Under the pieces are notes generated by a model, which ran no database searches, was not told where the DNA came from, and saw only the letters and a program-made list of their open reading frames with translations. From assembly GCA_963797095.1 (NCBI GenBank), contig CAWCNY010000006.1, positions 256,001 through 320,000 on the forward strand: DNA of 64,000 nucleotides. Direction: 5' to 3'. The translations under genes and the position numbers were made by a program. Below, piece by piece: positions 3,982-20,567 of this stretch (position 1 is its first letter; every line of letters starts with the position of its first letter). This DNA comes from an uncultured Chloroflexia bacterium. GTDB lineage: Bacteria > Chloroflexota > Chloroflexia > QHBQ01 > JADMIH01.

Positions 3982-4416
3982 ATGCTCGTACTGGCATCCA
4001 CGCTGGCACAGGCCACACCGATCCCCGTGGCGCAGGCTGTCACTTCCGTTTCCCAGAATCAGACTGACTGGCTTGTGATCGCCCTATTTTTCTCTTTCGC
4101 GCTGGGGATCGCCGTGACCATGATGTTCATTCCCGCGCTTTTGCGCCCCAAGGCTCCTAACCCCATCAAGGGTACGCCCTTTGAATCTGGTATGCCCCCG
4201 ATTGGGGAAGCGCAGGCGCGCTACACGATCCGCTACTACGTGATCGCCATGTTGTTCGTGGTGTTCGATATAGAAGCCGTGTTCTTCTATCCGTGGGCTG
4301 TAGCGTTCAATACTATCGGCTGGTATGGGCTGGTAGAGATGATACTGTTTATTGTCTTACTTTTAGTTGCGTATATATACGCCTGGAGAAAGGGGGCACT
4401 CGATTGGGTCTCCTAG
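3982..4416 (+). CDS. nuoA: NADH-quinone oxidoreductase subunit A
   Basis: [27 protein letters not shown]; AGGAGG RBS. Confidence 0.97.
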
Positions 4417-4910
4417 TAAATAGATTCCGTCCAAGTGTGGTTACTACCACCGCGGACTTCCTTTTTAACTGGGCGCATAGATATTCTATGTGGCCCTTGA
4501 TACTGGGAACTGCTTGCTGCGCCATCGAGATGATGGCGGTTGGCATATCGCGCTTCGATATGCTTGAGCGGTTCGGGATGCTCTACAGGTTCTCGCCCCG
4601 CCAGAGCGATGTGATGCTGGTGTGCGGCACGGTTACCAAGAAGTTCGCGCCCGTAATGCGCACCCTTTGGGACCAGATGAGCGAGCCTAAGTGGTGCATC
4701 GCGGTCGGCAACTGCGCCAGCGCGGGCGGGCCTTTCCCGACCTACGCCGTGGTACAGGGCATCGACGAAGTGGTGCCGGTGGACATCTATATACCCGGCT
4801 GCCCGCCCAACCCTGAGGCGATCTTCTACGGCATATTGAAGCTGCAAGAGATCGTCCAGCAGCAGACGCTTGCCCGCACAGGCCCCAAGCCGGAGAAGAA
4901 GCAAGCATGA
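4404..4910 (+). CDS. nuoB: NADH-quinone oxidoreductase subunit B
   Basis: [21 protein letters not shown]; probable TTG start overlapping nuoA. Confidence 0.97.
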
Positions 4911-4916
4911 TTAGTT

Positions 4917-5000
4917 GTCGGTAGTCGGTAGTCGGATGCAGTGTCAGTTCCGACTACCGACTACGGACTACCGACTACGGACTACCGACTACCGACTACC
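4917..5000. repeat. Inverted heptamer tandem repeats (gtcggta)n / (ccgacta)n
   Basis: About 3 units, a spacer, then about 7 complementary units between nuoB and nuoC. Confidence 0.9.
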
Positions 5001-5010
5001 GAGGGAACAA

Positions 5011-5538
5011 ATGGCAGACTATGTACCGTTCAAGGGTGGATACGTTCCGCCGCCTGCCGGGGTTGACCCTGAAGAGAACCCGGCAGTGCAGAAGTTGCGC
5101 GAGGCGATGCCCGATGTCATCGAGGGCGTGTCGGCGTATCGCGATCAGGTGACGATCCGGGTGTACAAGGATAGAATCGCGGAAGTATGCAAGTTCTTAC
5201 GCGATACACCGGGCCTTGAGTTCGATTTCTTGACTGACCTGACGGCGGTGGACTACCCCACCAGACCACAGCGGTTCGATGTGGTGCTCCACCTCTACAG
5301 CATGACTCAGAACCACAGGCTCAGGGTAAAGGCTGGCGTTGGTGAGAACGAGACGATACCGAGTGTAACGTCAGTGTGGAAAGCCGCCAATTGGGAGGAG
5401 CGCGAAGCCTTCGATATGTTCGGCATGGTATTTTCCGGTCACCCCGACCTGCGCCGCATTCTCCTGCCCGAAGATTGGGAGGGCTACCCCCTTCGCAAAG
5501 ACTACCCGCTAGGTGGATACGGGACATACACTTCGTAG
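5011..5538 (+). CDS. nuoC: NADH-quinone oxidoreductase subunit C
   Basis: [35 protein letters not shown]; ATG at 5011 after the repeat. Confidence 0.97.
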
Positions 5539-5611
5539 GTCGAGGACGAAAGACGAAAGGTGAAGGACGCAAGTCAGTTGGCACCCTTTGCTTTTCGTCG
5601 GAGGAACGAAT

Positions 5612-6886
5612 ATGGCTATCGAAGATCAGATTGAACTAACGGATGGCACCGACGCGCGCGTGGAGCCTGGGCGTGCCGTAGTGCAGACGGGAATTGGCCC
5701 CACAAACAACCTTGTGCCCCAGTCACAGGACATGATGCTCAACCTGGGGCCGCAGCACCCGTCGACGCATGGCGTGTTGCGCGTGCTCCTTGAGCTTGAC
5801 GGCGAAGTGGTGCGCAAAGCGATACCCGACATGGGCTATCTGCACCGGGGTATCGAGAAGATCGGGGAGTACAGGCAGTACAACCAGTTCGTGCCCTGGA
5901 CCGACCGCATGGATTATATAGCGGCTTTCACCAGCAATCTTGCTTTCGTGCAGGCTGTGGAAGAACTCATGGAGATTGAGATCCCTGAGCGGGCCAAATA
6001 CCTGCGCGTGATCTTCTCGGAATTGCAGAGGATAGCTTCTCACCTGCTGTGGCTGGGCACCCACTTGATGGACCTGGGCGCGACCACCGTCTTCCTGTTC
6101 GCCTTGAGGGAGCGAGAAAAGGTGCTTGATTTGCTGGAGCTGCAAACCGGCGCCCGCCTCACCCTGAACGCTCAGAGGGTGGGCGGCTTCCCAAAGGATC
6201 TCCCTCCAGGCTGGATTGAGAAATGCAAAGCATTCCTCGACGAGATGCCCGGCCACTTTGTCGAGTACGATTCGCTGCTGGCCGAGAACCCGATATTCCT
6301 GCGCCGCGTGAAGGGCGTGGGCGTGATCTCAGCCGAGGACGCGATCCAGTGGGGCCTTACCGGGCCGAGCCTGCGCGGGTCGGGTGTGGCCTATGATATA
6401 CGCAAGGCTATGCCCTACGCCGTGTACGATAGGCTCGATTTCGAGGTGCCTATAGGCACGCATGGCGATGTATATGATCGTTTCCTGGTCAGGATGGAGG
6501 AGATGCGCCAGAGTATCAAGCTGATCAGGCAGTCCCTCGATCAATTGCCGGGTGGGCCTGTAATGACCGAGGATATGAGGGTAGCTCTGCCGGGGAAAGA
6601 GGCCACCATGACCAGCATCGAGGCCATGCAGAGGCACTTTATCCTGGTGATCCACGGCTTCAAAGCGCCGGTGGGCGAGTACTATTCGGCTGTCGAGTCG
6701 CCCAAGGGCGAGTTAGGCTGGTATATAGTGTCGAACGGCGAGAACCACCCTTACAGGGCGCGCTGCCGGGCCGCCTCATTCGTCAACTTGCAGTCGCTGC
6801 CGATAATGACGGAAGGCGGCATGATCGCCGACGTGATCGCCAATATCGGCTCGCTCGATATCGTAATGGGTGAGATAGACAGGTAA
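5612..6886 (+). CDS. nuoD: NADH-quinone oxidoreductase subunit D
   Basis: GPQHPSTHGVLR, GYLHRG, ESPKGE, DIVMGEIDR. Confidence 0.98.
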   Translation: MAIEDQIELTDGTDARVEPGRAVVQTGIGPTNNLVPQSQDMMLNLGPQHPSTHGVLRVLLELDGEVVRKAIPDMGYLHRGIEKIGEYRQYNQFVPWTDRMDYIAAFTSNLAFVQAVEELMEIEIPERAKYLRVIFSELQRIASHLLWLGTHLMDLGATTVFLFALREREKVLDLLELQTGARLTLNAQRVGGFPKDLPPGWIEKCKAFLDEMPGHFVEYDSLLAENPIFLRRVKGVGVISAEDAIQWGLTGPSLRGSGVAYDIRKAMPYAVYDRLDFEVPIGTHGDVYDRFLVRMEEMRQSIKLIRQSLDQLPGGPVMTEDMRVALPGKEATMTSIEAMQRHFILVIHGFKAPVGEYYSAVESPKGELGWYIVSNGENHPYRARCRAASFVNLQSLPIMTEGGMIADVIANIGSLDIVMGEIDR

Positions 6887-6920: not shown

Positions 6921-7706
6921 ATGGATGAAAGCCCCCAGAGCGGACACGAGGAGAGCACAGGCGAAACGCTGAACAGCGTGCGTAGCGGGCATCTGACCCC
7001 GCACGAAGAGCGCGCCGCGGCTGCGCGTGTGGACGACAGCACCGCCATCGCGCCCGGTCGGGAGATACCGCCCACCGAGATCACGAGCATACTTGACCGC
7101 TACCGCCATGTGGACCCTGAAGAGGCGATGATCCCGGTTTTCCAGGAGATGCAGACGCAGTTCGGCTATATCACGCAGGCGGCTGCCGACCAGGTGTGCG
7201 CCGAGCTGGGCCTGCCTGAGGCTGACGTGTACGGGGTGCTCACTTTCTACTCCTTTTTCCGGTATACACCGAGAGCAGGGCACGTGATCATGTCGTGCGA
7301 AGGCACAGGGTGCTATGTGCGTGGGGCCGCCGCTGTGCGCGCCGCCGTTGAAGAGCGCCTGAATGTGGGACCGGGCGAAACTACGGCCGATGGTCACTGG
7401 ACGTTCGAGCCGCAATCGATCTGCCTGGGGGCGTGCGATCTCGGCCCGCTGGTCGATATCGAGGGGCGCTTCTATTCCTATGTGACGTCTGAGAAGATGA
7501 ACCAGATCATCGATCGGTGGGAAAACAGGCAGCCGGACGAAGACGAGCCTGTAGGGGATAATATGACGGGTGGCGTCGACCACCACGCTTACGCGAGTAA
7601 TTATGGCTTCGGCCCCAACTCCGAGGAATTGTACGCGGGGTACGAGGTGGAACGATATATGCAGAGTACGGACGGAGGGCAAAAGACGAAGGACGAAGGA
7701 CGCTAG
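6921..7706 (+). CDS. nuoE: NADH-quinone oxidoreductase subunit E (2Fe-2S)
   Basis: GVLTFY, CEGTGC...CLGAC; N- and C-terminal extensions. Confidence 0.93.
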   Translation: MDESPQSGHEESTGETLNSVRSGHLTPHEERAAAARVDDSTAIAPGREIPPTEITSILDRYRHVDPEEAMIPVFQEMQTQFGYITQAAADQVCAELGLPEADVYGVLTFYSFFRYTPRAGHVIMSCEGTGCYVRGAAAVRAAVEERLNVGPGETTADGHWTFEPQSICLGACDLGPLVDIEGRFYSYVTSEKMNQIIDRWENRQPDEDEPVGDNMTGGVDHHAYASNYGFGPNSEELYAGYEVERYMQSTDGGQKTKDEGR

Positions 7707-7766: not shown

Positions 7767-9701
7767 ATGGCTGAAATAACACATTATTATCCAATGGATG
7801 TCAGCAAGCGCTCGCAGTTCACACGCGAGCAGTTTGAAGATAGACAGGCTGCGGCGCGCAAACGCTGGCAGGCGACTATGACCGCCGCCGATGTGCCGGT
7901 GATCGTGGTGCCCTGGGGCTCCTCATCTGTGGCTCATGGAGCAGACAGTACTTTCGAGACGATCCGCAAGTGGGTCGAAGCGAACAGCGTGAAGGCAATA
8001 GTGCGCCGGGCAGGCCCTATGGGCACCGATTACCTGGAGCCTCAAGTAGACATAATATTGCCGGGGCAACCGCGCGTCTCCTATGCCCACATTACCGCCG
8101 ATAAGGTGCCGGAACTGCTGGAAAGCGTGCTGAAGGACGGCAATTTGCGCGCCGACATGGCTGTATGCATCTACGGCACAGACGAGTGGGATGGCGCTGA
8201 GATCGGGCTGAAGGGTATCCCTGCTGCTCGCGAGCTAGATTTCTGGAAGCTTCAGCAGCGCGTGGTGTCGCGCAACCTGGGCTATATAGACCCTGAAAGC
8301 ATTGACGATTACATTGCGCGTGGCGGCTACGAGGCGCTCAAGCGTGTGCTGTTTAGCATGTCCCCCGAAGACGTGATCAAGATGGTAACCGACGCCGGGC
8401 TGCGAGGTCGCGGGGGCGCAGGCTTCCCGGCAGGCATCAAGTGGGACGGCGGGCGCAAGGCCCGCAAGACGCCCAAGTACGTGATCTGCAACGCCCACGA
8501 AGGCGAGCCTAACGTCTTCAAAGACCGCAGGCTGCTGGAAGGGGACCCCCACGAAGTACTCGAAGGGATGATCATCCAGTGCTTCGCGGTGGGCACGCCC
8601 TGGTCCTATATATACGTGGGTGACGAGTACCCGCTGGCGATCCACAGGACCAAGGTAGCCGTGCAGCAGGCATACGAGGCTGGCCTGCTGGGCGACAACA
8701 TCATGGGGTCGGGCTTCTCCTGCCACGTGGACGTGCAGATGGGCGGTGGGGCCTACATATCGGGCGAGGCTTCGGCCCTCATGTTCGGTATCGAGGGGAA
8801 GCGCGCCATGCCGCGCACCAAGCCCCCGCGCTCGGTGGAGGCTGGCCTGTTCAATCTGCCCACAGTCGTGAACAACGTCGAAACGATGGCGTGCGTGCCC
8901 GCCATAGTAGTGAATGGGGCGCAGTGGTTCGCCGGGATCGGAACTGAAAAGAGCAAGGGCACCAAACTATTCACACTGATGGGCTCGGTTGAGCGCATAG
9001 GGATGTACGAGTTGCCGCTGGGCCGTACCATGCGTGAGTTGGTGTATACTTGCGGGGGCGGTTGCCTGGATGGACGCCCCTTCAAGGCGATCCAGACGGG
9101 AGGCCCATCGGGCGGCTGCCTGCCGGAGCAGAATCTCGACCTGATCATGGACTTCGACTCGCTCAACAATTACGGCGGCACTATGGGGTCGGGTGGCTAT
9201 GTTGTATACGACGACACGACCTGTATCGTTGATATGAGCCGCTACTTCGGGAGGTTCAACAGGTACCAGTCTTGCGGTAAGTGTGTGCCCTGTCGCGTCG
9301 GCACCAAGAACCTGCTCCACATGGTCGACCGGATAGCGCTGGGCAACAGCCGCCCTGAAGATATCCCGATCATGAAGAAGTGGAGCGACCACGTAGTCGA
9401 GATGTCGTTGTGCGGGTTGGGCCAGACCGCGCCTTTGCCTCTGCTGGGCGGCCTGCGCTATTTCCTCGATGAGTTCGAGGAGCATATTAATGACAAGCAC
9501 TGCCGGGCGGGCAAGTGCGACGTGCTTGTAGAGCGCGAGCAGAAAGGGCAGAAACACACCCCGGCCTGGTTGGAAGAGACTTATCTGCCCGCCAGGATCG
9601 GTGAGCGCTACAGGAAGCAGTTCGGCGCGATCACGCAGGGGAATGGGCAAGTGCAGGGCACCGCGCCCACTTTGACCGAGGGGGAGGCGGTGCAAAGATA
9701 A
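7767..9701 (+). CDS. nuoF: NADH-quinone oxidoreductase subunit F, long HoxF/HydB-like form
   Basis: GLRGRGGAGFP, NAHEGEP, NNVET, CGKCVPC...C; extra N-terminal thioredoxin-like region. Confidence 0.93.
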   Translation: MAEITHYYPMDVSKRSQFTREQFEDRQAAARKRWQATMTAADVPVIVVPWGSSSVAHGADSTFETIRKWVEANSVKAIVRRAGPMGTDYLEPQVDIILPGQPRVSYAHITADKVPELLESVLKDGNLRADMAVCIYGTDEWDGAEIGLKGIPAARELDFWKLQQRVVSRNLGYIDPESIDDYIARGGYEALKRVLFSMSPEDVIKMVTDAGLRGRGGAGFPAGIKWDGGRKARKTPKYVICNAHEGEPNVFKDRRLLEGDPHEVLEGMIIQCFAVGTPWSYIYVGDEYPLAIHRTKVAVQQAYEAGLLGDNIMGSGFSCHVDVQMGGGAYISGEASALMFGIEGKRAMPRTKPPRSVEAGLFNLPTVVNNVETMACVPAIVVNGAQWFAGIGTEKSKGTKLFTLMGSVERIGMYELPLGRTMRELVYTCGGGCLDGRPFKAIQTGGPSGGCLPEQNLDLIMDFDSLNNYGGTMGSGGYVVYDDTTCIVDMSRYFGRFNRYQSCGKCVPCRVGTKNLLHMVDRIALGNSRPEDIPIMKKWSDHVVEMSLCGLGQTAPLPLLGGLRYFLDEFEEHINDKHCRAGKCDVLVEREQKGQKHTPAWLEETYLPARIGERYRKQFGAITQGNGQVQGTAPTLTEGEAVQR

Positions 9702-9775
9702 AACGCAGGGCTACAGCCTACACGATTGGTGCGATATAATGGCAACAATCCGTGCGTAATTTAGGAGATGGTGCT

Positions 9776-10012
9776 GTGACGAAAGCTATTGATTTTACAG
9801 ATGAGACTTACGCTCTGCTAGAAGAAATGAGTAGGAAGATGGGTTTTGCTGACATAGAGCATCTTGTCAAGAAGTTACTGTGGGAAGCTGAACTTCAAAG
9901 AAGAAAGGAGCTTGGGAGGAGAATCAACAAGCATCGAGAAGCAATGCTCTCGCAGTATGGCGTGATGAAAGACAGCACCGAATTGATTCGTCAGGACCGA
10001 GAGCGCCAATAG
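9776..10012 (+). CDS. Putative VapB-type antitoxin
   Basis: Small low-GC ORF directly upstream of the PIN gene; C-terminal DSTELIRQDR; GGAG RBS before GTG. Confidence 0.65.
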   Translation: MTKAIDFTDETYALLEEMSRKMGFADIEHLVKKLLWEAELQRRKELGRRINKHREAMLSQYGVMKDSTELIRQDRERQ

Positions 10013-10016
10013 CCAA

Positions 10017-10461
10017 ATGGCTGACCTTATAGTAGACAGTACCTTATAGTAGACAGTAGTGTTGCCATCAAGTGGTTCATAACCGAAGTCGACAGTGCCG
10101 ACGCGCTCAAGGTGTTCGCAAAATATCAAAGTGGCCATATAACATTGCTTGCTCCTGACCTTATTAGCGTAGAAGTAAGAAACAAAATATGGCGCAAGTG
10201 TATATTCGAAGGTATGTCCAGTCAGATGCAGACCAGATAATAGCGGATTTTCGCGCAGTTGGAATCGATTTTACGGCTGATGCACTTTTGCTTGATGATG
10301 CTTACCGGTTAGCGGTAGCTTATCGATGCACTGTTTACGATGGGCCATACGTCGCCTTGAGCGAACGCAAAGGATGCGAACTGGTGACGGCAGACAAGCG
10401 CTTATTCAATGCAGTAGGAACGGTATTGCCGAACATCGTATTGTTAGCAAATTGGTCATAA
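10017..10461 (+). pseudogene. VapC/PIN-domain toxin pseudogene with two frameshifts
   Basis: MADLIVDSSVAIKWF...LLAPDL..E..N.IWRK joined to YD..YVALS...LVTADKRL is recovered only after removing a 17-bp duplication (10024-10057) and correcting a 1-nt loss near 10218. Confidence 0.85.
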
Positions 10462-10529: not shown

Positions 10530-13529
10530 ATGGCAGCAGCCAAAATGATCACTATCAGCATAGACGGCACTAAGGTTCAGGTTCCGGACGGCACATACGT
10601 GTGGGATGCCTGCCGTATGATCGGCATTGAGATCCCGAACTTCTGCTACTTGCCGGGTCTGCGGGCTTTCGGCGCTTGCAGGATGTGCGTGGTTGAGGTA
10701 TCGGGTCGCCGCGGCTTCGAGCTTGTCACTTCATGCTCCACTCCCGCAACCGACGGTATGGAAGTGCGCACCGTCAACGACCGTGTATGGCAGCAGCGCA
10801 ACATGGTCATGGAGGCGCTCGACACCGACCACCCGGTTGACTGCCCTATCTGCGAGGCCAACGGCGATTGCCGCCTGCAAGACTACGGATACGAATACAG
10901 CGTGACAGGCACCGATACCAGCCGCCCCAAGATCGTGCGCCCCGCCGAGCGGTTGTCTCCTGCTATCGACCTTGACCGCGACCGCTGTGTGGTTTGCGGG
11001 CGCTGTGTCCGCGAATGCGACGAAGTGGTTGGCGCGACCGCCCTGGCCTTCGTGGAGCGCGGCGTGGAGTCGCTGATCGATGCGCCGTTCGGCAAGTCGC
11101 TGCTCGATACGCCCTGCACCTCGTGCGGGATGTGCGTGGAGGTGTGCCCTGTTGGCGCGCTCTCCAGCCGTATCAACCTCAAGATGGAGCACCACTGGTG
11201 GCAGCGCAAGACCGAGACCACCTGCAACTACTGCTCGGTGGGGTGCACGATCAAGTTGGGCACTACGCGCAACCAGGTGTACGAGGTGAGGACCGACGAT
11301 GCGGTGGGCCTGAACGATGGCGTGACCTGCGTCAAGGGCAGGTTCGCTATGGACGTGGTCAACTCGAACAACCGCCTCTCGACGCCGCTTGTGCGCGAAG
11401 GCGGCAAGCTAGTGCAGAGCACCTGGGACGACGCCCTCGATATGATGGCTTCGCAGTTCAAGGAGTACAAGGGCGCTGTTGGGGTGGTAGCTTCCTCCAA
11501 GCTTACCAACGAGGAAAACTACCTGTTGCAGAAGGTGACGCGCCTCGGCCTCGGCACCAACAACATAGATTACGATGGACGCGCCCGGGAAGGTGACATA
11601 TTGCAGGTGCTGGCCGACATGCTCGGCTACCCCGCGCAGACCAACAACCTGATCGACACCCGCCAGAAGGCAGGGGCTGTGCTCCTCATAGGCGATAGCA
11701 TCTACGAGACCCACCCCGTTTACGCCTACCAGTTGCAGCGCATGATCCGCCTGACCAACAAGCAGGTGGTCGTGATCAGCCCTCGCTGGCAGAAGATGTG
11801 CGAATGGGCCGCCCTCTGGCTCTCGCCGAAGGCGGGTACAGAAGAGGCGCTGCTGGGCGGGATCGCTCGCGTTATCCTCGATGCGGGTCTGCTTGACCAG
11901 GCTTACCTGGACGGCAGAACCGACAACGGGGCAGCTTTCCTGAAGGCGCTGGCGGGCAAAGCGTTCTCCCTGGAGAGTGTGAGCAAGGCTACCGGAGTGC
12001 CCGCCGGGGATATAGTGGCTGCCGCCTACATTTACGCCACGGGCGGCAAGGACACGGGACCTGTCGACCTGCCTGGGCCCACTCACCCCAGCAATCTGCC
12101 CACCCAGAACGGCAAAACCGAGCCGAGCTATGCTGACGCGATCAAGAACTACGGCACCAAGCGCGGCGATACTCAATTCCCGCCCGCCACTATCGTGTTC
12201 CCCGCATCGGGGCCATATACACTGACCACTGCCGCCGTCGCGCAACTGACCAACCTGGCTTTGCTGACGGGCAACGTGGGGCGCGAGGGAGCCGGTGTGA
12301 ACCCGCTGGTGGTCGATAGCAACAGCATGGGCGCGAACGATATGGGCTGCCAGCCGGGCATGTTCCCAGGCTATCGCCCTGTGAACGCCGATAATGCCCG
12401 CGAGCTAGAAGAGTTATGGTCGCTCGACCCCGAACGCGCCAGCCAGGAAGTGCCCTCGGAGCCGGGCCTGAGCCTCGCCAACATGCTTGAGGCCATCGAG
12501 AACGGCGACATCAAGGCGCTGTGGGTGGTCGGCTCCAACCCTGTGCTTGGCAGCGACGACCCGGATGCCGCCAGGGTGCGTGCGGCCCTCTCCAAGCTGG
12601 AATTCCTTGTGGTACAGGATATCTTCTACAGCGAAACCGCTGAGCTTGCGCACATGATCCTCCCCGCTGCCTCCTATGCGGAGAAAGAGGGCAGCTATAC
12701 CAATACAGAGCGGCGCGTGCAGCGCGTGCGGCCTGCGGTCCAGACGCTGGGCGCGTCAAAGACCGACGTGGAGATCATAGGCTTGATTGGTTACAGGCTG
12801 GGGGTGATCCTGCCTTCCATGCAGCCCGGCCTGGTGTTCGCCGAGATCGCCAGGGTTGTGCCCCAGTACGCGGGAATGTCCTACGCCCGCCTCGATATGA
12901 CCGAGTTCATCAACGACGCGATACCGATGCCTGCCGCCGTGTCGCTCAAGCAGTTAAAGGTGCGCAGCCTGATGTGGCCGTGCACCAGCAGGACCGATCC
13001 AGGTACGCCTGTGCTTTATACGGATACGTTTGGGACCGCCAGCGGCAAGGCGCGCATGTGGGTGCCGTCAGGCACGGGCGCTGCGTCCGAAGCGACCACG
13101 GGGGGCGCTCTTATGGCGACGTTCGGCTTCCCGCTCTTCCCGTTCAAGTCGGGCACGCTGAGCAGGCAAAGCTACGGCCTGAGCCGGGTCGAGCCTAACC
13201 CCAGGCTGCACCTGAACACGGCAGACGCGCTCAGACTGGGTATCAGTGACCAGATGCCCGTGCAGGTTACGATTGAAGGTGCGCCAGCATCTGAGCCTGT
13301 GTACGCGGTGTCGCAGGTGTATGACAGGATGCCGCAGGGCACGGCCTTCCTCGCGATGACTCTAGAGCAAGCCGGGACGAATGCGGCGGTACGCGCTGCC
13401 AGGCACGAGATAGCAGCCGATGGGACGGGCACGAAGAAGAGCATGCCGATCACCGTAACGCCCGCACCGAATATCAGGTTGGACGAATTGACCCCGATGG
13501 GGGCAGGTATTCTTACCGCTGGTGAGTGA
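10530..13529 (+). CDS. nuoG: NADH-quinone oxidoreductase subunit G, FdhA-like long form
   Basis: 2Fe-2S domain, HPVDCPICEANGDC, two CxxCxxCxxxC-type motifs, CNYCSVGC...C, molybdopterin-fold domain; position within the nuo operon. Confidence 0.88.
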   Translation: MAAAKMITISIDGTKVQVPDGTYVWDACRMIGIEIPNFCYLPGLRAFGACRMCVVEVSGRRGFELVTSCSTPATDGMEVRTVNDRVWQQRNMVMEALDTDHPVDCPICEANGDCRLQDYGYEYSVTGTDTSRPKIVRPAERLSPAIDLDRDRCVVCGRCVRECDEVVGATALAFVERGVESLIDAPFGKSLLDTPCTSCGMCVEVCPVGALSSRINLKMEHHWWQRKTETTCNYCSVGCTIKLGTTRNQVYEVRTDDAVGLNDGVTCVKGRFAMDVVNSNNRLSTPLVREGGKLVQSTWDDALDMMASQFKEYKGAVGVVASSKLTNEENYLLQKVTRLGLGTNNIDYDGRAREGDILQVLADMLGYPAQTNNLIDTRQKAGAVLLIGDSIYETHPVYAYQLQRMIRLTNKQVVVISPRWQKMCEWAALWLSPKAGTEEALLGGIARVILDAGLLDQAYLDGRTDNGAAFLKALAGKAFSLESVSKATGVPAGDIVAAAYIYATGGKDTGPVDLPGPTHPSNLPTQNGKTEPSYADAIKNYGTKRGDTQFPPATIVFPASGPYTLTTAAVAQLTNLALLTGNVGREGAGVNPLVVDSNSMGANDMGCQPGMFPGYRPVNADNARELEELWSLDPERASQEVPSEPGLSLANMLEAIENGDIKALWVVGSNPVLGSDDPDAARVRAALSKLEFLVVQDIFYSETAELAHMILPAASYAEKEGSYTNTERRVQRVRPAVQTLGASKTDVEIIGLIGYRLGVILPSMQPGLVFAEIARVVPQYAGMSYARLDMTEFINDAIPMPAAVSLKQLKVRSLMWPCTSRTDPGTPVLYTDTFGTASGKARMWVPSGTGAASEATTGGALMATFGFPLFPFKSGTLSRQSYGLSRVEPNPRLHLNTADALRLGISDQMPVQVTIEGAPASEPVYAVSQVYDRMPQGTAFLAMTLEQAGTNAAVRAARHEIAADGTGTKKSMPITVTPAPNIRLDELTPMGAGILTAGE

Positions 13530-13552
13530 AACCAAGGACTCTAGGAGGAAAA

Positions 13553-14887
13553 ATGGACTGGGTGCTAATCCTGCTGAGGGCCATTCTGGCGTTTGCTATT
13601 GTGAATGTCACCCTTGTTATCGTCGCCTATGTTATCTACGGCGAGCGCAAGGTTGGAGCGCACATGCAGGCTCGCCAGGGGCCGAATAGAGCCGGGCCGA
13701 TAGGTGTGTTCCAGAGCTTCGCGGACCTCCTGAAGATGCTCAAGAAAGAAGACACCACGCCCAAGGACGCCGACAAAGTCGTCTTCTTCGTGGCTCCAAT
13801 AGTGGCCGCCTTCGCCAGCATCGCTGTGGTGGCAGTAATACCGTGGAGTCCCGGCAGCATCGATATCTTCGGCGTGCAGATCCCCCTTTATGTGGGTAAC
13901 GTGAGTGTGGCCATGCTTGTGGCCCTGGCTCTCTCCTCGCTTGGTGTGTACGGCGTGCTGATGGCAGGCTGGTCGTCAAACAGCAAGTATGCCCTGCTCA
14001 GCGGTATGCGCGCATCATCCCAGGTGATCAGCTACGAGCTTACTTTCGGCATCTCATTGATAGGTGTGTTCCTTCTCTCCAGCTCCCTTAGCCTGGTGGA
14101 TATCACGAACGCACAGAACGCCAGCCACAGCGCCACCCAGCCGGGTATCTGGTTTTTCTTATTGCAACCCGTTGCCATGCTGATCTTCTTCACATCGGCG
14201 CTGGCCGAAACGGCCCGCACGCCGTTCGACCTGATCGAGGCCGAATCGGAGCTTGTGTCAGGCTATCACACCGAGTACAGCGGTATGCGCTTCGGCCTAT
14301 TCCAGCTTGCCGAATTCAACGCCGCCTTCACAATGTCTGCCCTCACTTCGGTGCTCTTTTTCGGCGGTTGGAGCTCGCCTTTCGCGGCCTTCTTCGATAG
14401 CGGGCAGTCGCTGGCGGGCATCCCGGTGCTCAGTGGGCTGCTCGGCTCAGGCATACACTGGCTGATCCTGAAGATACTGTTCTTCATTTTCATCTTCTAC
14501 TGGCTGCGCTGGACGCTGCCACGCTTCCGCTACGACCAACTGATGGGCCTTTGCTGGAAGGTATTTCTGCCCGTCATCCTGGCAAACATCTTGGTGCTGA
14601 GCATACTCAAGCTGATCTTCTTCCCGCCTCCACCCGCCGGTGTAACGGTGGCAGAGCAAGCAGCCACCTATAACCCCTTGTTCTGGTGGATCCTGGTGGC
14701 GATTGAATTAGCCCTGGGTGTGGTAGCCGTCATTGGCCTCTCCCGAGTGTCAGGTCTTAGCTGGTTCGGCAAGGCAGAGCGTCCAGTGCTGGTTGACCGC
14801 CAGATTATACTGGTGCGCAACGTGCAGGGCGGGCGTGGGACGATTGAAGGCGAATCCCGAACTGTGAGCGTCTCACACGAGGCGTGA
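13553..14887 (+). CDS. nuoH: NADH-quinone oxidoreductase subunit H
   Basis: ERKV..MQARQGPNRAGP, AETARTPFDLIEAESELVSGY, TLPRFRYDQLM. Confidence 0.97.
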   Translation: MDWVLILLRAILAFAIVNVTLVIVAYVIYGERKVGAHMQARQGPNRAGPIGVFQSFADLLKMLKKEDTTPKDADKVVFFVAPIVAAFASIAVVAVIPWSPGSIDIFGVQIPLYVGNVSVAMLVALALSSLGVYGVLMAGWSSNSKYALLSGMRASSQVISYELTFGISLIGVFLLSSSLSLVDITNAQNASHSATQPGIWFFLLQPVAMLIFFTSALAETARTPFDLIEAESELVSGYHTEYSGMRFGLFQLAEFNAAFTMSALTSVLFFGGWSSPFAAFFDSGQSLAGIPVLSGLLGSGIHWLILKILFFIFIFYWLRWTLPRFRYDQLMGLCWKVFLPVILANILVLSILKLIFFPPPPAGVTVAEQAATYNPLFWWILVAIELALGVVAVIGLSRVSGLSWFGKAERPVLVDRQIILVRNVQGGRGTIEGESRTVSVSHEA

Positions 14888-14916: not shown

Positions 14917-15486
14917 ATGGACTTAGTAAATCAGGTAGCGGGCTTCTTCGTTACGCTCCGGCAGTTTTTCAAGCCGCCTGTGACCGTCGAATACCCCGAT
15001 ACGATACGCGACCTCTCGCCCAGGTTCAGGGGCGCTGTGGGCCTCTTGCCACACCCTGAGACCGGGCGCGAGAAGTGCGTGGGCTGTGGCCTTTGCCCTC
15101 AGATCTGCCCAGTCGATGCTATCGCCATCGGCGTGATCGAGGACGACAGGCCGGGCGCTAACCACATGGACGATTGGAAGCCCTTCGAGCACTACTACAC
15201 CAAGGGCCTCGACCCGCTGGACCCTCGCGCCCGCACGCTCACTTACTATTACGAGATCAACGAGACACGCTGCATGTATTGCGGCCTGTGTGTTGAGGTT
15301 TGCCCTGTGGAGGCGATCATTATGAGCCACCACTTCGAGATGGCTACCGACAACCGGGCCAGGACCATTTATGACAAGGATAAGCTGCTCGACCTCGGCA
15401 AGATATATATGGCCGAGCTGAACGAGAAACTGGACGCTCAGGCGCGGGCCGCGAGCGTAAGCCAGGCGTCGGACGGTGGACGCTAG
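14917..15486 (+). CDS. nuoI: NADH-quinone oxidoreductase subunit I
   Basis: TVEYP, CVGCGLCPQICP, CMYCGLCVEVCP. Confidence 0.97.
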   Translation: MDLVNQVAGFFVTLRQFFKPPVTVEYPDTIRDLSPRFRGAVGLLPHPETGREKCVGCGLCPQICPVDAIAIGVIEDDRPGANHMDDWKPFEHYYTKGLDPLDPRARTLTYYYEINETRCMYCGLCVEVCPVEAIIMSHHFEMATDNRARTIYDKDKLLDLGKIYMAELNEKLDAQARAASVSQASDGGR

Positions 15487-15533: not shown

Positions 15534-16346
15534 ATGAATGTTGACGTTTTCGGCATCATGATACCGATACCACCGTTAGGGCAACTGGTGTTCATTCCTG
15601 CCGCGCTGATCTCGATCGTCTCCTCGATAATGATGATCACGCGCAATAACGCCGTGCACTCCGCCCTGTGGTTGGTACTCACCTTCTTCAACCTGGCGGT
15701 GATGTATGTGATGCTGGGGGCCGAGTTCCTGGCGGCTTTGCAGGTGCTTGTCTATACAGGTGCTATTCTGGTGCTCTTTCTGTTCGTAATTATGCTCCTT
15801 GGCCTAAAATCAGGGCCGCAACTAGGCGGCGTGCATACCGCCCAGCTAATCGCCGCCTGGCCCGTAGGGCTTATTCTTGCGGGGCAGATGGTCCTGATAA
15901 TCCTCTTCACCTCGCAGCCGCGCGAGGTGCACTACGGCGATATCATCGGCACCCAGGAAGTGCTCTGGAGCAACAACAATGTGTTGGCGGTAGGGGGCAA
16001 CGTTCAGGCCCTTGGGCAGACGTTGTACACGCAGTTCTTGCTGCCGTTTGAAATTGCGTCGCTGATCCTGCTGCTGGCGGTGATCGGCGCTATCGTGCTG
16101 GCGCGTAAGGAAGAACCGGCTGAGGTAGAAGAAGTAGTGCCGTCATTGGGTATCTCTGTGGGTCGCCGCTCGGTGTCTCAATCTCCCCAGGAAGAGCAAC
16201 TTGAAAAGAAACTCCTGCCTGCCCTGGGCGGAACCAAGTATGTGCCTGGCATGACCGAGGGTGAGGTGGAAGTACCGACGGTAGACCAGCCTGACGCGGT
16301 GGGCGCTGGCACCACATCCGGCATCGAGCCGAGTAATAAATCATAA
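15534..16346 (+). CDS. nuoJ: NADH-quinone oxidoreductase subunit J
   Basis: AEFLAALQVLVYTGAILVLFLFVIML, LPFEIASLILL. Confidence 0.96.
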   Translation: MNVDVFGIMIPIPPLGQLVFIPAALISIVSSIMMITRNNAVHSALWLVLTFFNLAVMYVMLGAEFLAALQVLVYTGAILVLFLFVIMLLGLKSGPQLGGVHTAQLIAAWPVGLILAGQMVLIILFTSQPREVHYGDIIGTQEVLWSNNNVLAVGGNVQALGQTLYTQFLLPFEIASLILLLAVIGAIVLARKEEPAEVEEVVPSLGISVGRRSVSQSPQEEQLEKKLLPALGGTKYVPGMTEGEVEVPTVDQPDAVGAGTTSGIEPSNKS

Positions 16347-16413: not shown

Positions 16414-16746
16414 ATGGACCTATCAACAGTATCGGAGACCACAGGCGTACCGTTGGCGTGGTACCTGGCGGTCAGCGCCATACTCTTTTGCCTGGGGTTG
16501 ATCGGCGTGCTGACCAGGCGCAACATACTGGTGATCTTTATGTCCGCCGAATTGATGATGAACGCCGTGAACCTGTCTCTGATTGCTTTCAGCACCTCGC
16601 TGAACTCGATGGCCGGGCAGAATTTCGTGGTGTTCGTGGTGACGGTAGCCGCAGCCGAGGCAGCGGTCGGCCTTGCGATCATTATCTCACTGGTAAGGCA
16701 GAAACCGACCGTAGATACGACGGATATAGATTTGCTTAAGGAGTAG
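16414..16746 (+). CDS. nuoK: NADH-quinone oxidoreductase subunit K
   Basis: RRN...[18 protein letters not shown]. Confidence 0.97.
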
Positions 16747-19001: not shown

Positions 19002-20567
19002 GTGGATAACAACCTGCTGGACTTGCCCATCCTATCGATTATGGTGTATCTGCCGGCGCTTACGGCAGTGGTGCTGTTGTTCGTAAAGGACAACAGGCTG
19101 ATACGCCGGATCGCTGTGATAGGGGCGGCTCTCGACCTGGCGATTTCGATCATTGCCCTGGCGCTTTACGCCTACTACAAGTGGGGCAGCAGCGGTCCGG
19201 GCAGCTTCGATTTCCAGGAGAACGCCGCCTGGCTGGACAGTCTCAACGTCAGATATCACCTGGGCGCAGACGGTCTCTCCCTGTTGCTGCTGGTACTTAC
19301 CACCCTCCTGACCGTAATCTCTATTCTCGTCTCGTGGGACCCCATCAAGAAGCGCGTGCGCGAATTCTACATCGTGCTCCTCCTACTTGAGGCAGGCATG
19401 ATGGGTGTGTTCGTTTCGCTCGATTTCTTCGTCTTCTACATCTTCTGGGAAGTAATGCTTGTGCCGATGGCCCTTCTGATCGGCATCTGGGGTTCGTCCA
19501 ATCGGGTATACGCGGCTATCAAGTTCTTCCTCTATACGCTGGCAGGCTCGCTGCTCATGCTGGTGGCGATCATCGCCCTCTATTTGCAGCATGGCACCCT
19601 CGATGTCCTCACCCTACAGCAACTTGGCCCCGGCGACCCCCACGACTTCCAGAACTGGGTCTTCCTGGCCTTTGCCGCCGCCTTTGCGATCAAAGTGCCG
19701 ATGTGGCCGTTCCACACGTGGTTGCCCGATGCCCACGTGGAGGCACCCACGGCAGGCTCGATCATCCTGGCGGGGGTGCTGCTTAAGATGGGCGCATACG
19801 GCTTCATCAGGTTCGCCATGCCTATTTCCCCGGCGGGCGCGGCCCAATTTGCGCCGATCATGGTCGGCCTATCGGTGATCGCCATAATCTACGGGGCTTT
19901 GGTTTCGCTGGTGCAGCCCGACCTGAAGAAGCTAATCGCCTATTCGTCGGTAAGCCACATGGGCTTCGTCACGCTGGGCCTTTTTACAGGCATCTGGCTC
20001 AACCAGGAGGGCTACACCCAGGGCACACAGGGTATTGACGGCGCGATAATAGTCATGTTGTCGCACGGCTTCCTGACCGGCGGCCTCTTCCTCTGCGTGG
20101 GTGTGGTCTATAATCGCTTGCACAGCCGTCTGATCGCCGATATGGGCGGCATCGCCAGACCGATGCCGCGCTACGCCTTCTTATTCGGGGTGATGGTGTT
20201 CGGCTCGGTGGGCTTGCCTGGCCTGAGCGGCTTCATAGGCGAGTTTCTCACGATGGTTGGCGCGTTCCGGGCCGACTGGCTGGTGGGCACTATCACATCG
20301 TTCGTGGTTATCCTGGCAGCCTGGTATCTACTGTGGATGTTCCAGCGGGTGGTATTCAATAGAACCGCGCCGGCAGTGCGCAATTTCAAAGACGCTGATG
20401 CCATAGAAACAGGCTCGTTGGTGGTGCTGGGCGCACTCAGCCTGCTCGTGGGGGTCTACCCAGGTCCCTTGCTCGACTTCCTGCACCCGGCCACTCAAAC
20501 CTTGCTGACAACGGTTTCGGCCCAGGTGCCGAAGGTGGTGACGCTATCGCAGTTGTTCTTCAGGTAG
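19002..20567 (+). CDS. nuoM: NADH-quinone oxidoreductase subunit M
   Basis: FYIFWE, KVPMWPFHTWLPDAHVEAPT, YSSVSHMG. Confidence 0.98.
   Translation: MDNNLLDLPILSIMVYLPALTAVVLLFVKDNRLIRRIAVIGAALDLAISIIALALYAYYKWGSSGPGSFDFQENAAWLDSLNVRYHLGADGLSLLLLVLTTLLTVISILVSWDPIKKRVREFYIVLLLLEAGMMGVFVSLDFFVFYIFWEVMLVPMALLIGIWGSSNRVYAAIKFFLYTLAGSLLMLVAIIALYLQHGTLDVLTLQQLGPGDPHDFQNWVFLAFAAAFAIKVPMWPFHTWLPDAHVEAPTAGSIILAGVLLKMGAYGFIRFAMPISPAGAAQFAPIMVGLSVIAIIYGALVSLVQPDLKKLIAYSSVSHMGFVTLGLFTGIWLNQEGYTQGTQGIDGAIIVMLSHGFLTGGLFLCVGVVYNRLHSRLIADMGGIARPMPRYAFLFGVMVFGSVGLPGLSGFIGEFLTMVGAFRADWLVGTITSFVVILAAWYLLWMFQRVVFNRTAPAVRNFKDADAIETGSLVVLGALSLLVGVYPGPLLDFLHPATQTLLTTVSAQVPKVVTLSQLFFR

What the first reader, a model, noticed from the sequence alone, without database searches (positions are those of the whole stretch)
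8742..8834. NuoF has NADPH-type substitutions: possible natural NADPH:quinone oxidoreductase
Seen: YISGEASAL in place of the canonical YICGEETAL, and KPPRS in place of KPPFP. Established: the second Glu (E. coli NuoF E183) contacts the adenosine ribose and excludes the 2'-phosphate, and E183 substitutions including E183A let E. coli complex I oxidise NADPH. Inference: Ala at this site plus Arg replacing the adenine-stacking Phe creates a 2'-phosphate pocket in an otherwise complete proton-pumping nuoA-N complex.
Basis: partly seen in the sequence, partly recalled or inferred. Interest (0 to 1): 0.7.

Follow-up and report, generated by a model that had tools for sequence, protein, structure and literature searches.

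The report
Complex I flavoprotein with NADPH-type pocket
The only NADH-binding subunit of this bacterium's respiratory complex I carries the same pocket changes as a known NADP-specific relative, so this proton pump may burn NADPH, an activity not yet shown in nature.

Summary
Window 8742-8834 encodes residues 326-356 of NuoF (7767-9701), GGGAYISGEASAL...KPPRS. Gap-free alignments put Ala335 on E. coli Glu183 (Thermus Glu185) and Arg355 on E. coli Phe203 (Thermus Phe205).

The NADPH reading gains independent support. Thermoanaerobacter kivui HydB is measured as NADP+-dependent and has GEST...PPRT. Its Arg340, named as a nucleotide contact, aligns with Arg355. The NAD+-dependent Acetobacterium woodii HydB has GEET...PPFP.

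Across 252 distinct relatives the switch is all-or-none: Glu always goes with Phe/Tyr, and a small residue never does. It happened at least six separate times (6 of 6 independent pairs).

This NuoF is not a mutated canonical NuoF. It belongs to a Chloroflexia clade that is sister to bifurcating-enzyme BfuB/HydB proteins, with an N-terminal thioredoxin-like domain that has lost its cysteines. All 120 nearest homologues carry the signature.

It is the only NuoF in a 93%-complete genome, and it sits in a complete nuoA-N operon.

No activity was measured, and the link from signature to NADP rests on one characterised enzyme. I give about 0.55 that NADPH is a good substrate. It is testable in cultured Sphaerobacter thermophilus.

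The parts
3982..4416 (+). nuoA
   Evidence: A 144-aa membrane ORF directly upstream of nuoB. Assigned by position and sequence character; it was not scanned against Pfam.
4293..4910 (+). nuoB. This is the ORF as listed; the true start is probably later, because it overlaps nuoA.
   Evidence: Pfam Oxidored_q6, 7.8e-29.
4915..5538 (+). nuoC
   Evidence: Pfam Complex1_30kDa, 9.9e-50.
5588..6886 (+). nuoD
   Evidence: Pfam Complex1_49kDa, 1.5e-114.
6921..7706 (+). nuoE, 261 aa, with N- and C-terminal extensions around the [2Fe-2S] thioredoxin-like core.
   Evidence: Pfam 2Fe-2S_thioredx on residues 55-200. The best solved-structure hits are the HydC/NfnC type and E. coli NuoE, with similar scores.
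7767..9701 (+). nuoF, 644 aa: BfuB/HydB-like flavoprotein and the only NuoF-type gene found in the genome.
7884..8171 (+). N-terminal thioredoxin-like domain of NuoF (about residues 40-135). It is homologous to the [2Fe-2S] domain of HydB/NfnB, but its cluster cysteines are replaced (GSSSVAHGA...GPMGTDYLEP).
   Evidence: Alignments to 9bov_B and 9n5u_B begin at residues 42-48. The cysteine columns are seen in A1 and counted.
8496..8498 (+). His244 codon. The first-loop motif is NAHEGEPNVFK, where canonical proteins have NADE(S/G)(E/D)PG.
   Evidence: His is present in 31 of 31 rows of the Chloroflexia clade and needs one change on the tree.
8742..8834 (+). The reported signature, residues 326-356. 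It holds Ala335 (8769-8771), Arg355 (8829-8831) and Ser356.
9231..9485 (+). N3-type [4Fe-4S] region of NuoF. Cys503, Cys506, Cys509 and Cys549 are invariant.
   Evidence: Pfam NADH_4Fe-4S; invariant columns in A1.
9752..10461 (+). Toxin-antitoxin-like insert between nuoF and nuoG. It has an 86-aa ORF (9752-10012) and a PIN-like gene whose N-terminal half lies in another frame than the 90-aa ORF (10189-10461). It is probably not part of the enzyme.
   Evidence: Three-frame read and tblastn to congeners. No Pfam or NCBIfam hit for either ORF.
10530..13529 (+). nuoG, 999 aa. It is FdsA-like, with a formate-dehydrogenase-type molybdopterin domain whose Mo-ligand Cys-His is replaced by Arg-Glu.
13526..14887 (+). 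nuoH
   Evidence: Pfam NADHdh, 6.8e-116.
14917..15486 (+). nuoI
   Evidence: Pfam Fer4 families.
15534..16346 (+). nuoJ
   Evidence: Pfam Oxidored_q3.
16414..16746 (+). nuoK
   Evidence: A 110-aa membrane ORF between nuoJ and nuoL. Assigned by position and sequence character; it was not scanned against Pfam.
16853..18886 (+). nuoL
   Evidence: Pfam Proton_antipo_M and Proton_antipo_N.
19002..20567 (+). nuoM
   Evidence: Pfam Proton_antipo_M.
20668..22197 (+). nuoN
   Evidence: Pfam Proton_antipo_M.

Best explanation
NuoF is the FMN and nucleotide entry subunit of a complete 14-gene complex I, and its adenosine pocket is in the NADP(H)-type state of the NuoF/BfuB superfamily.

Three changes define that state. 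The Glu that hydrogen-bonds the adenosine ribose, and that would clash with a 2'-phosphate, is Ala335. The Phe/Tyr that stacks the adenine is Arg355, which can still stack and can also pair with the 2'-phosphate. The following Pro is Ser356.

The complex therefore most likely oxidises NADPH, either preferentially or alongside NADH. Electrons would pass through FMN, the N3 cluster and the NuoG/I/B clusters to menaquinone while protons are pumped.

Shown here: the alignments, the conservation, the coupled switching of the three positions, the complete operon, and the single-copy status. Taken from the literature: the NADP+ dependence of the T. kivui enzyme that has the same pocket. Inferred: that the pocket state sets specificity in this clade, and the direction of operation. 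I take NAD(P)H oxidation as the direction because no photosynthetic reaction centre or RuBisCO gene was found.
For: 1. Ala335 = E. coli E183 = Thermus E185, and Arg355 = E. coli F203 = Thermus F205, all gap-free. The roles of these residues are given in the PMC11677225 passage.

2. T. kivui HydB (8a6t_B) has GESTAL...RPPRT, and its Arg340 aligns with Arg355. The paper says this enzyme 'operates on NADP+', and its Fig. 4 legend names Phe205 and Arg340 as nucleotide contacts (PMC10021017, passages). NADP+-dependent activity was measured (PMC8578170, passages). A. woodii HydB (7q4v_B, NAD+) has GEETAL...RPPFP. The PDB identities are confirmed.

3. In 252 distinct core sequences, 91 of 91 with Glu have Phe/Tyr and 0 of 160 scored without Glu have Phe/Tyr; 155 have Arg in the aligned column, and two further rows carry an Arg displaced by an insertion.

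4. On a 123-row tree built without the trait columns, 6 of 6 independent pairs lose the aromatic residue and the Pro together with the Glu, with none going the other way (p 0.031, the minimum possible with 6 pairs).

5. Paralogues of both states coexist in single genomes. G007 has one nuo operon of each type (L159, L156). G105 and G087 carry a copy nested inside the clade that reverted to EEMA/KPPFP (L140, L141).

6. All 120 of the 120 nearest homologues keep the state.

7. This is the only PF01512 gene in the 6.02-Mb, 93%-complete genome. Two NDH-2-like genes and pntB are present, so NADH can be handled by other routes.

8. The rest of the site is intact: the GRGGAGF loop, Lys225, Glu245, Lys352 and the N3 cysteines are invariant or nearly invariant.
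Against: - No enzyme of this clade has been assayed.
- The link between signature and NADP rests on one characterised pair, T. kivui against A. woodii.
- Arg can stack adenine, so NADH may still bind well. Dual use cannot be told apart from NADPH preference.
- PMC9431212 (passages) proposed a first-loop motif, N-G-D-E-G-D-P-G, as an NADP marker in T. kivui and C. autoethanogenum. That motif is absent here, where the loop reads NAHEGEPN.
- In several genomes the R-type NuoF is the only NuoF, so it may have to serve NADH as well.
- The NDH-2 assignment is weak: 29-31% identity to E. coli Ndh and no NCBIfam equivalog.
- The tree is FastTree only, with local support values.
Confidence: 0.55

Rival explanations
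1. The enzyme is an ordinary NADH:quinone oxidoreductase. The Ala/Arg/Ser state would be a lineage-specific alternative way of holding the adenosine of NADH, with Arg stacking the adenine, and NADPH would remain a poor substrate.
For: In this genome and others (G002, G005) the R-type NuoF is the only NuoF, and respiration normally has to reoxidise NADH. The first loop differs from that of the NADP-specific T. kivui enzyme. Only one R-type enzyme has been characterised.
Against: The coupled three-residue switch recurred at least six times and reverted once as a unit, which is hard to explain as neutral change. Both states coexist as paralogues in single genomes. The only assayed R-type enzyme is NADP+-dependent, while its 58%-identical Glu/Phe sibling uses NAD+. 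Removing the Glu takes away the residue that holds the ribose hydroxyls.
Confidence: 0.28
2. The same NADP(H)-type pocket is used mainly in reverse. Quinol plus proton-motive force would drive NADP+ reduction to supply biosynthetic NADPH, as complex I does with NAD+ in lithotrophs and in phototrophs that have a type II reaction centre.
For: Relatives of the clade include CO- and H2-oxidising Thermomicrobia, for which a route from CO or H2 to NADPH is still sought (PMC2615216, passage). Reverse operation of complex I is discussed in PMC4453560 (passage).
Against: No photosynthetic reaction-centre or RuBisCO large-subunit gene was found in this 93%-complete genome. pntB is present and already offers a pmf-driven route to NADPH. 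The direction of operation cannot be read from sequence.
Confidence: 0.1
3. It is a Nuo-Bfu-type confurcating complex I that oxidises NAD(P)H and reduced ferredoxin together at a BfuBC core.
For: NuoF, NuoE and NuoG all score higher against Bfu- or Fds-type solved structures than against canonical complex I subunits. Schut et al. predicted Nuo-Bfu enzymes (PMC9304861, passages).
Against: The C-terminal 2x[4Fe-4S] ferredoxin domain that defines BfuB in that study is absent; only 2 Cys follow the N3 region, against 10 in P0105 and P0118. The N-terminal [2Fe-2S] cysteines are lost. The clade is sister to the Bfu clade, not inside it. Nuo-Bfu was reported from other phyla.
Confidence: 0.04

Closest known systems
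Thermoanaerobacter kivui HydB, the NADP+-dependent subunit of electron-bifurcating [FeFe]-hydrogenase HydABC (PDB 8A6T/8BEW)
   Same: The FMN/nucleotide domain is homologous (518.9 bits over residues 156-588). The pocket state is the same: a small residue at the Glu position (Ser320 against Ala335), Arg340 = Arg355, and Thr against Ser after the Arg. The partner Phe of the Gly-rich loop is conserved (Phe205 = Phe220).
   Different: It is a soluble, ferredoxin-coupled hydrogenase subunit with an N-terminal [2Fe-2S] cluster and a C-terminal 2x[4Fe-4S] domain, and its first loop is NGDEGDPG. The window protein has lost the N-terminal cysteines, lacks the C-terminal domain, has NAHEGEPN, and sits in a nuoA-N operon.
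Engineered E. coli complex I NuoF E183 variants (Morina et al. 2011, J Biol Chem 286:34627). I saw only the title; the content is recalled.
   Same: The same residue position is altered (Ala335 = E183), in a proton-pumping complex I.
   Different: Those are laboratory point mutants of a canonical NuoF that keep Phe203-Pro204. The window protein is natural, also carries Arg and Ser at 355 and 356, and belongs to another lineage.
Canonical NuoF/Nqo1/NDUFV1 of respiratory complex I (E. coli, Thermus thermophilus 2fug_1, Aquifex aeolicus 6hl2_B)
   Same: The core fold is the same, with 40% identity to E. coli over 401 residues. It shares the Gly-rich FMN loop, the N3 cluster motif, and the operon position between nuoE and nuoG.
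   Different: It scores below the curated NuoF cut-offs (443.4 against 558.65 bits for TIGR01959). It has an extra N-terminal domain of about 170 residues and a C-terminal tail of about 55. It has GEAS/PPRS in place of GEET/PPFP. On the tree it lies apart from the canonical Chloroflexia NuoFs, which group near E. coli.
Nuo-Bfu, the predicted confurcating complex I of Deferribacteres, Proteobacteria, Planctomycetes and Nitrospirae (Schut et al. 2022, PMC9304861)
   Same: A Bfu-like NuoEFG module sits in the middle of a 14-gene nuo cluster.
   Different: Nuo-Bfu BfuB keeps the ferredoxin-type C-terminal domain and is proposed to use NADH plus ferredoxin. No NADPH pocket and no Chloroflexia clade were described in the passages I read. 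Its supplementary tables could not be seen.
Complex I operons of Limnocylindria with an Stn/Nfn-like NADPH module inserted in nuoI
   Same: They are also from Chloroflexota, and also propose NADPH as a fuel for complex I.
   Different: There a separate GltD-type NADPH domain is added. Here the NuoF site itself is in the NADP-type state and the operon architecture is ordinary.

Membership tests
Canonical complex I NuoF (NCBIfam TIGR01959 / NF010120 / NF008436 equivalogs) | Score above the curated equivalog cut-off | tested here: not met
   443.4 against 558.65, 349.6 against 389, and 335.6 against 749 bits.
Canonical complex I NuoF (NCBIfam TIGR01959 / NF010120 / NF008436 equivalogs) | FMN-binding Gly-rich loop and N3 [4Fe-4S] Cys motif | tested here: met
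   Pfam Complex1_51K and NADH_4Fe-4S. G214-F220 and C503/C506/C509/C549 are invariant in A1.
Canonical complex I NuoF (NCBIfam TIGR01959 / NF010120 / NF008436 equivalogs) | Encoded between nuoE and nuoG in a nuoA-N operon | tested here: met
   The D-E-F-G order is kept in 15 of 16 congener loci.
Canonical complex I NuoF (NCBIfam TIGR01959 / NF010120 / NF008436 equivalogs) | NADH-type adenosine pocket (GEET...PP[F/Y]P) | tested here: not met
   GEAS...PPRS.
Canonical complex I NuoF (NCBIfam TIGR01959 / NF010120 / NF008436 equivalogs) | Groups with canonical NuoF on a tree | tested here: not met
   It falls in a 31-row clade (support 100) that is sister to the BfuB/HydB clade. Canonical Chloroflexia NuoFs lie next to E. 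coli (FastTree only).
BfuB/HydB of the Bfu family (Schut et al. 2022) | C-terminal 2x[4Fe-4S] ferredoxin-type domain | tested here: not met
   No Fer4 Pfam hit. Only 2 Cys follow the N3 region, against 10 in P0105 and P0118.
BfuB/HydB of the Bfu family (Schut et al. 2022) | N-terminal thioredoxin-like [2Fe-2S] domain with its cysteines | tested here: not met
   The domain aligns, but the cluster cysteines are replaced. There is 1 Cys in the N-terminal region, against 3-5 in P0044, P0054, P0079, P0105 and P0118.
BfuB/HydB of the Bfu family (Schut et al. 2022) | Closest solved relatives are BfuB-type | tested here: met
   7t2r_B scores 542.5 bits and 8a6t_B 518.9 bits, against Thermus Nqo1 at 341.3 bits.
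NADP(H)-type pocket of NuoF-like flavoproteins (type: T. kivui HydB) | Small residue at the ribose-binding Glu, Arg at the stacking Phe/Tyr, Ser/Thr at the following Pro | tested here: met
   Ala335, Arg355 and Ser356 against Ser320, Arg340 and Thr341.
NADP(H)-type pocket of NuoF-like flavoproteins (type: T. kivui HydB) | First-loop N-G-D-E-G-D-P-G motif, proposed as an NADP marker in PMC9431212 | tested here: not met
   The loop here is NAHEGEPN. Among Asp-loop rows that lack the Glu, 10 have Gly and 5 have Ala, so this motif is not a strict marker.
NADP(H)-type pocket of NuoF-like flavoproteins (type: T. kivui HydB) | Measured preference for NADP(H) | not testable with these tools
   This needs an enzyme assay.

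The most novel reading that the evidence does not exclude
A whole clade of Chloroflexia, including cultured Sphaerobacter and Thermomicrobium relatives, runs its only complex I on NADPH. That would be a natural energy-converting NADPH:menaquinone oxidoreductase. The three-residue Glu/Phe/Pro to small/Arg/Ser switch would then be a general, predictive NAD-versus-NADP code for the entire NuoF/HydB/FdsB/HoxF superfamily.
Probability: 0.35. Interest if true: 0.85.

Novelty: new variant of a known kind. Interest (0 to 1): 0.68.

Why it matters
Complex I is regarded as an NADH enzyme. As I recall it, the 2011 engineering study described NADPH-driven proton pumping as an activity not found in nature. 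A natural NADPH-accepting complex I would change how redox budgets are modelled for a large soil and hot-spring bacterial group.

It would also give about 100 mV more driving force for pumping against low-potential menaquinone; the physiological potentials are quoted in PMC9304861.

In addition, it would provide a simple sequence rule for predicting the nucleotide specificity of hydrogenases, formate dehydrogenases and complex I modules from genomes.

The question is directly testable. Sphaerobacter thermophilus is cultured, carries one NuoD and one R-type NuoF beside one weak, unclassified NuoF-like gene (L160), and its NuoF is of this type.

Tried and rejected
- **Morina et al. 2011 and Berrisford & Sazanov 2009.** Neither is held. 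Searches for text describing E183 found nothing useful. The E. coli mutant data are therefore recalled only.
- **Genome-contig scan.** It returned mostly distant BfuB homologues and only one close relative. I used those rows as a diversity sample and fetched close relatives through the genome search and the fetch from genomes instead.
- **NuoG as an active formate dehydrogenase.** Rejected. It is closest to FdsA (425 bits), but the Mo-ligand Cys-His is Arg-Glu.
- **A confurcating Nuo-Bfu.** Considered unlikely, because the ferredoxin domain and the N-terminal cluster are missing.
- **First-loop Gly as the specificity marker (PMC9431212).** It does not hold as a rule in my sample.
- **Neighbours of the stand-alone nuoEF pair in G002.** The neighbours within 5 kb on each side are unrelated housekeeping genes, so no alternative partner enzyme was found.
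- **Prior description.** Searches for an earlier description of an NADPH-type NuoF in Chloroflexota found none (passages read).
- **Earlier notes of this scan.** Nothing near this place. Related but different NADPH-module findings exist in other genomes.
- **Modelling with NADPH or NADH.** Not possible. The structure tools return no coordinates or ligand contacts, so I ran no fold.
Full report
**What is there.** The window carries a complete complex I operon on the + strand:

| Gene | Coordinates | Note |
|---|---|---|
| nuoA | 3982-4416 | |
| nuoB | 4293-4910 | ORF as listed |
| nuoC | 4915-5538 | |
| nuoD | 5588-6886 | |
| nuoE | 6921-7706 | |
| nuoF | 7767-9701 | |
| two small ORFs | 9752-10461 | between nuoF and nuoG |
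| nuoG | 10530-13529 | |
| nuoH | 13526-14887 | |
| nuoI | 14917-15486 | |
| nuoJ | 15534-16346 | |
| nuoK | 16414-16746 | |
| nuoL | 16853-18886 | |
| nuoM | 19002-20567 | |
| nuoN | 20668-22197 | followed by gyrA |

These assignments rest. The reported bases 8742-8834 encode NuoF residues 326-356, GGGAYISGEASALMFGIEGKRAMPRTKPPRS.

**Do the residues align as claimed?** Yes.
- BLASTP against E. coli K-12 NuoF has no gap in this block. Ala335 falls on Glu183, and Arg355-Ser356 fall on Phe203-Pro204.
- A 111-residue query around the site matches Thermus Nqo1, Aquifex NuoF and E. coli NuoF over equal lengths. The offsets give Ala335 = Glu185, and Arg355 = Phe205 (Thermus) or Tyr205 (Aquifex).
- A review passage states that in complex I the adenine ring is stacked by Phe70 and Phe205 in Thermus (Phe71 and Tyr205 in Aquifex), and that the adenosyl ribose is held by Glu185 and Lys76 (PMC11677225).
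- The mutant work on E. coli Glu183 (Morina et al. 2011) is not held. I saw only its title in two reference lists, so what I say about it is recalled.

**What kind of NuoF is this?** It is not a canonical one.
- Its best solved relatives are the flavoprotein subunits of electron-bifurcating (Bfu-family) enzymes. Acetomicrobium NiFe-HydB 7t2r_B scores 542.5 bits and T. kivui HydB 8a6t_B 518.9 bits, against 341.3 bits for Thermus Nqo1.
- It scores below all three curated NCBIfam NuoF cut-offs.
- It has an N-terminal domain that aligns with the [2Fe-2S] thioredoxin-like domain of HydB/NfnB but has lost the cluster cysteines. It lacks the C-terminal 2x[4Fe-4S] domain of BfuB.
- NuoG is likewise closest to the NAD-dependent formate dehydrogenase alpha subunit FdsA (425 bits, against 198-241 bits for Thermus and mycobacterial NuoG). 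Its Mo-ligand Cys-His is replaced by Arg-Glu, so it is a wire and not a formate dehydrogenase.

**A natural precedent for the pocket.** The pair of acetogen hydrogenases studied by Katsyv et al. gives a controlled comparison.
- HydABC of A. woodii 'employs NAD+', while that of T. kivui 'operates on NADP+'. The legend of Fig. 4 says the nucleotide is stabilised by the Gly-rich loop, Phe205 and Arg340 (PMC10021017, passages). The PDB codes are assigned.
- NADP+-dependent activity and 58% HydB identity between the two enzymes are reported in PMC8578170 (passages).
- In gap-free alignments to the window protein, A. woodii HydB reads GEETAL...RPPFPAN and T. kivui HydB reads GESTAL...RPPRTNE. Arg340 lies on Arg355, and Phe205 lies on the invariant Phe220.
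- So the only assayed enzyme with this pocket state uses NADP+, and its close sibling with the canonical state uses NAD+.

**Is the state conserved and coupled?**
- All 120 best homologues (47-100% identity) lack the second Glu and have Arg-Ser. Most are Chloroflexota MAGs, and some are named Thermomicrobium roseum, Sphaerobacter thermophilus and Thermorudis peleae by their sources.
- In 80 diverse BfuB-like loci from genome contigs, 74 could be read by pattern, giving 75 sites. Sixty had Glu-Glu, all followed by Phe or Tyr. Fifteen lacked the Glu: 11 had Arg, 2 His, 1 Gln, and 1 an insertion.
- I pooled everything fetched into 252 distinct core sequences. Of these, 91 of 91 with Glu have Phe/Tyr. 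Of the 161 without Glu, none has Phe/Tyr: 155 Arg, 2 His, 2 Gln, 1 Pro, and 1 unreadable by the pattern but seen as Ser/His. Two of the non-Arg rows carry an Arg displaced by an insertion.
- I filtered to 123 rows at under 80% identity, which dropped 129 near-duplicates. I then built a FastTree tree with the trait columns removed.
- On that tree, the loss of Glu needs 8 changes. In 6 of 6 independent pairs on well-supported branches, the aromatic residue and the following Pro are lost together with the Glu, never the reverse (p 0.031, the lowest value six pairs can give).
- If the second trait is Arg specifically, 4-5 pairs agree, 0 disagree and 1-2 show another polar residue.
- Caveats: FastTree local supports only, E. 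coli as the single outgroup, and related rows.

**Where the clade sits and how it is used.**
- The window protein belongs to a 31-row Chloroflexia clade (support 100), marked by a unique first-loop change (NADE to N[A/S/G]HE; 31 of 31 rows, one change). The clade is sister to the BfuB/HydB clade (joint support 100). The canonical NuoFs of other Chloroflexia lie near E. coli.
- In a sample of 121 genomes of the class, 120 have a NuoF-like match.
- In fetched loci, the R-type gene lies in nuo order (D-E-F-G, or B-C-D-F-G-H-I-J) in these groups:
  - the window's genus: 15 of 16 loci, the sixteenth being a 3.5-kb contig piece;
  - families f2 and f3 of the same order;
  - families f4, f8 and f9.
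- Three of these loci (L090, L091, L102) come from unpublished genomes G013, G031 and G097. The statement holds without them.
- In families f5, f12 and f13 it is a stand-alone nuoE-nuoF pair, and in f6 an E-F-G trio. Around the pair in G002 the neighbours are unrelated housekeeping genes.
- G096 encodes exactly the protein that NCBI names NuoF of Sphaerobacter thermophilus. There, and in G002, I found one NuoD, one R-type NuoEF pair and one NuoG-like gene at separate places. The R-type pair is therefore the only full-length NuoF partner for the only complex I (G096 also has a weak, unclassified NuoF-like hit, L160).
- Other families of the class (f10, f11, f14, f15) have canonical Glu/Phe NuoF in their nuo operons.

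**Paralogue evidence.**
- G007 has two nuo operons, one with the R-type NuoF (L159) and one with a canonical NuoF (L156).
- Family f6 genomes have an R-type E-F-G cluster beside a canonical A-F operon.
- G105 and G087 carry, beside their R-type gene, a copy nested inside the clade that has returned to EEMA...KPPFP as a unit (L140, L141).
- Coexistence, and reversal of all three positions together, is what one expects if the state sets substrate choice.

**Physiological setting in this genome.**
- The gene is the only PF01512 match in 6.02 Mb (93% complete).
- There is one clear NuoD, plus one distant NuoD/hydrogenase-like gene elsewhere.
- pntB is present. There are two NDH-2-like genes with 29-31% identity to E. 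coli Ndh over nearly its full length, though without an NCBIfam equivalog.
- So NADH can plausibly be reoxidised or transhydrogenated without this site.
- No reaction-centre or RuBisCO gene was found. This favours forward operation in a heterotroph, with the usual caution for an incomplete genome.

**Most likely mechanism.**
- NAD(P)H binds over the FMN as in complex I.
- Ala335 removes the carboxylate that would repel a 2'-phosphate. Arg355 stacks the adenine against Phe220 and pairs with the phosphate. Ser356 adds a hydrogen-bond donor.
- Electrons then follow the usual chain to quinone.
- I put about 0.55 on NADPH being a good, possibly preferred, substrate; about 0.28 on plain NADH use; about 0.1 on mainly reverse operation (NADP+ reduction); and a few percent on a ferredoxin-coupled Nuo-Bfu.
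- A possible rationale is inference only. At the physiological potentials quoted by Schut et al. (NADPH about -380 mV, NADH about -280 mV, menaquinone -74 mV), NADPH would give a menaquinone-linked pump about 100 mV more driving force.

**Against the reading.**
- Only one R-type enzyme has been assayed.
- Arg may hold NADH as well.
- The first loop differs from that of T. kivui. A published proposal places the NADP determinant in that loop (PMC9431212, passages), although in my sample that motif is not a strict marker.
- Organisms whose only NuoF is R-type may need it for NADH.

**Novelty.**
- Full-text searches found no description of an NADPH-type NuoF in Chloroflexota or of this residue code.
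- The passages I read do not mention it: PMC4453560, PMC9304861, PMC2615216 and PMC5736913.
- Supplements were closed, and subscription journals are mostly not held.
- Earlier notes of this scan describe a different route to NADPH input, Stn-like modules in Limnocylindria. One of them led me to the Nuo-Bfu paper.
- I file this as a new variant of a known kind: a complex I whose nucleotide site is in the NADP-type state.

Noticed in passing
window 9752-10461: A toxin-antitoxin-like pair sits between nuoF and nuoF's downstream neighbour nuoG. It has an 86-aa ORF and a PIN/VapC-like gene whose N-terminal half (motif LIVDSSVAIKWF) lies in a different frame from the 90-aa C-terminal ORF, so the gene looks frameshifted here. 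Homologues of both ORFs lie in the same gap in five congener loci (L084, L087-L090). The F-G spacing ranges from 93 to 1248 bp across the genus.
   Followed up: partly
window 10530-13529 (nuoG): NuoG is 999 aa and scores higher against FdsA-type NAD-dependent formate dehydrogenase (6tg9_A, 425 bits) than against any complex I NuoG. The Mo-ligand Cys-His of FdsA is Arg-Glu here. It looks like a relatively recent burnt-out formate dehydrogenase.
   Followed up: partly
window 8490-8522 (NuoF residues 242-252): The first-loop motif NAHEGEPNVFK replaces the canonical NADE(S/G)(E/D)PG. The Asp to His change is invariant in the 31-row Chloroflexia clade and is found nowhere else in the 123-row sample. 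Its role next to the FMN and nicotinamide is unexplained.
   Followed up: partly
L140 (G105) and L141 (G087): These are paralogues nested inside the His-loop clade that have reverted to GEEMAL...KPPFP. They stand alone, without a nuoE neighbour, in genomes that also keep an R-type nuoEF pair.
   Followed up: partly
L159 and L156 (G007): One genome has two nuo operons: one with the R-type NuoF and one with a canonical Glu/Phe NuoF. This would be a natural system for comparing the two.
   Followed up: partly
P0049, P0050; L107 (G091), L109 (G054): A sub-lineage of family f2 reads SGLADAL...KPPRS. It has lost even the first, otherwise nearly invariant Glu of the GE motif, while still lying in D-E-F-G order.
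   Followed up: no
window 6921-7706 (nuoE): NuoE is 261 aa against about 160-180 in most solved homologues. It has an N-terminal extension of about 55 residues and a C-terminal extension of about 60 residues, neither matching a known family.
   Followed up: no
G000:C6:631738-632427: A second, distant NuoD/[NiFe]-hydrogenase-large-subunit-like gene (384-aa frame, 110.9 + 23.2 bits to PF00346) lies about 370 kb from the nuo operon. It may belong to a group 4 hydrogenase or another complex I-like module.
   Followed up: no
L160 (G096:C1:833601-837086): Sphaerobacter thermophilus has a second, weak PF01512 hit (514-aa frame, 33% identity to the window NuoF by tblastn). It was not found by my pattern searches for the Gly-rich loop or the pocket motif, so its type is unknown.
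   Followed up: no
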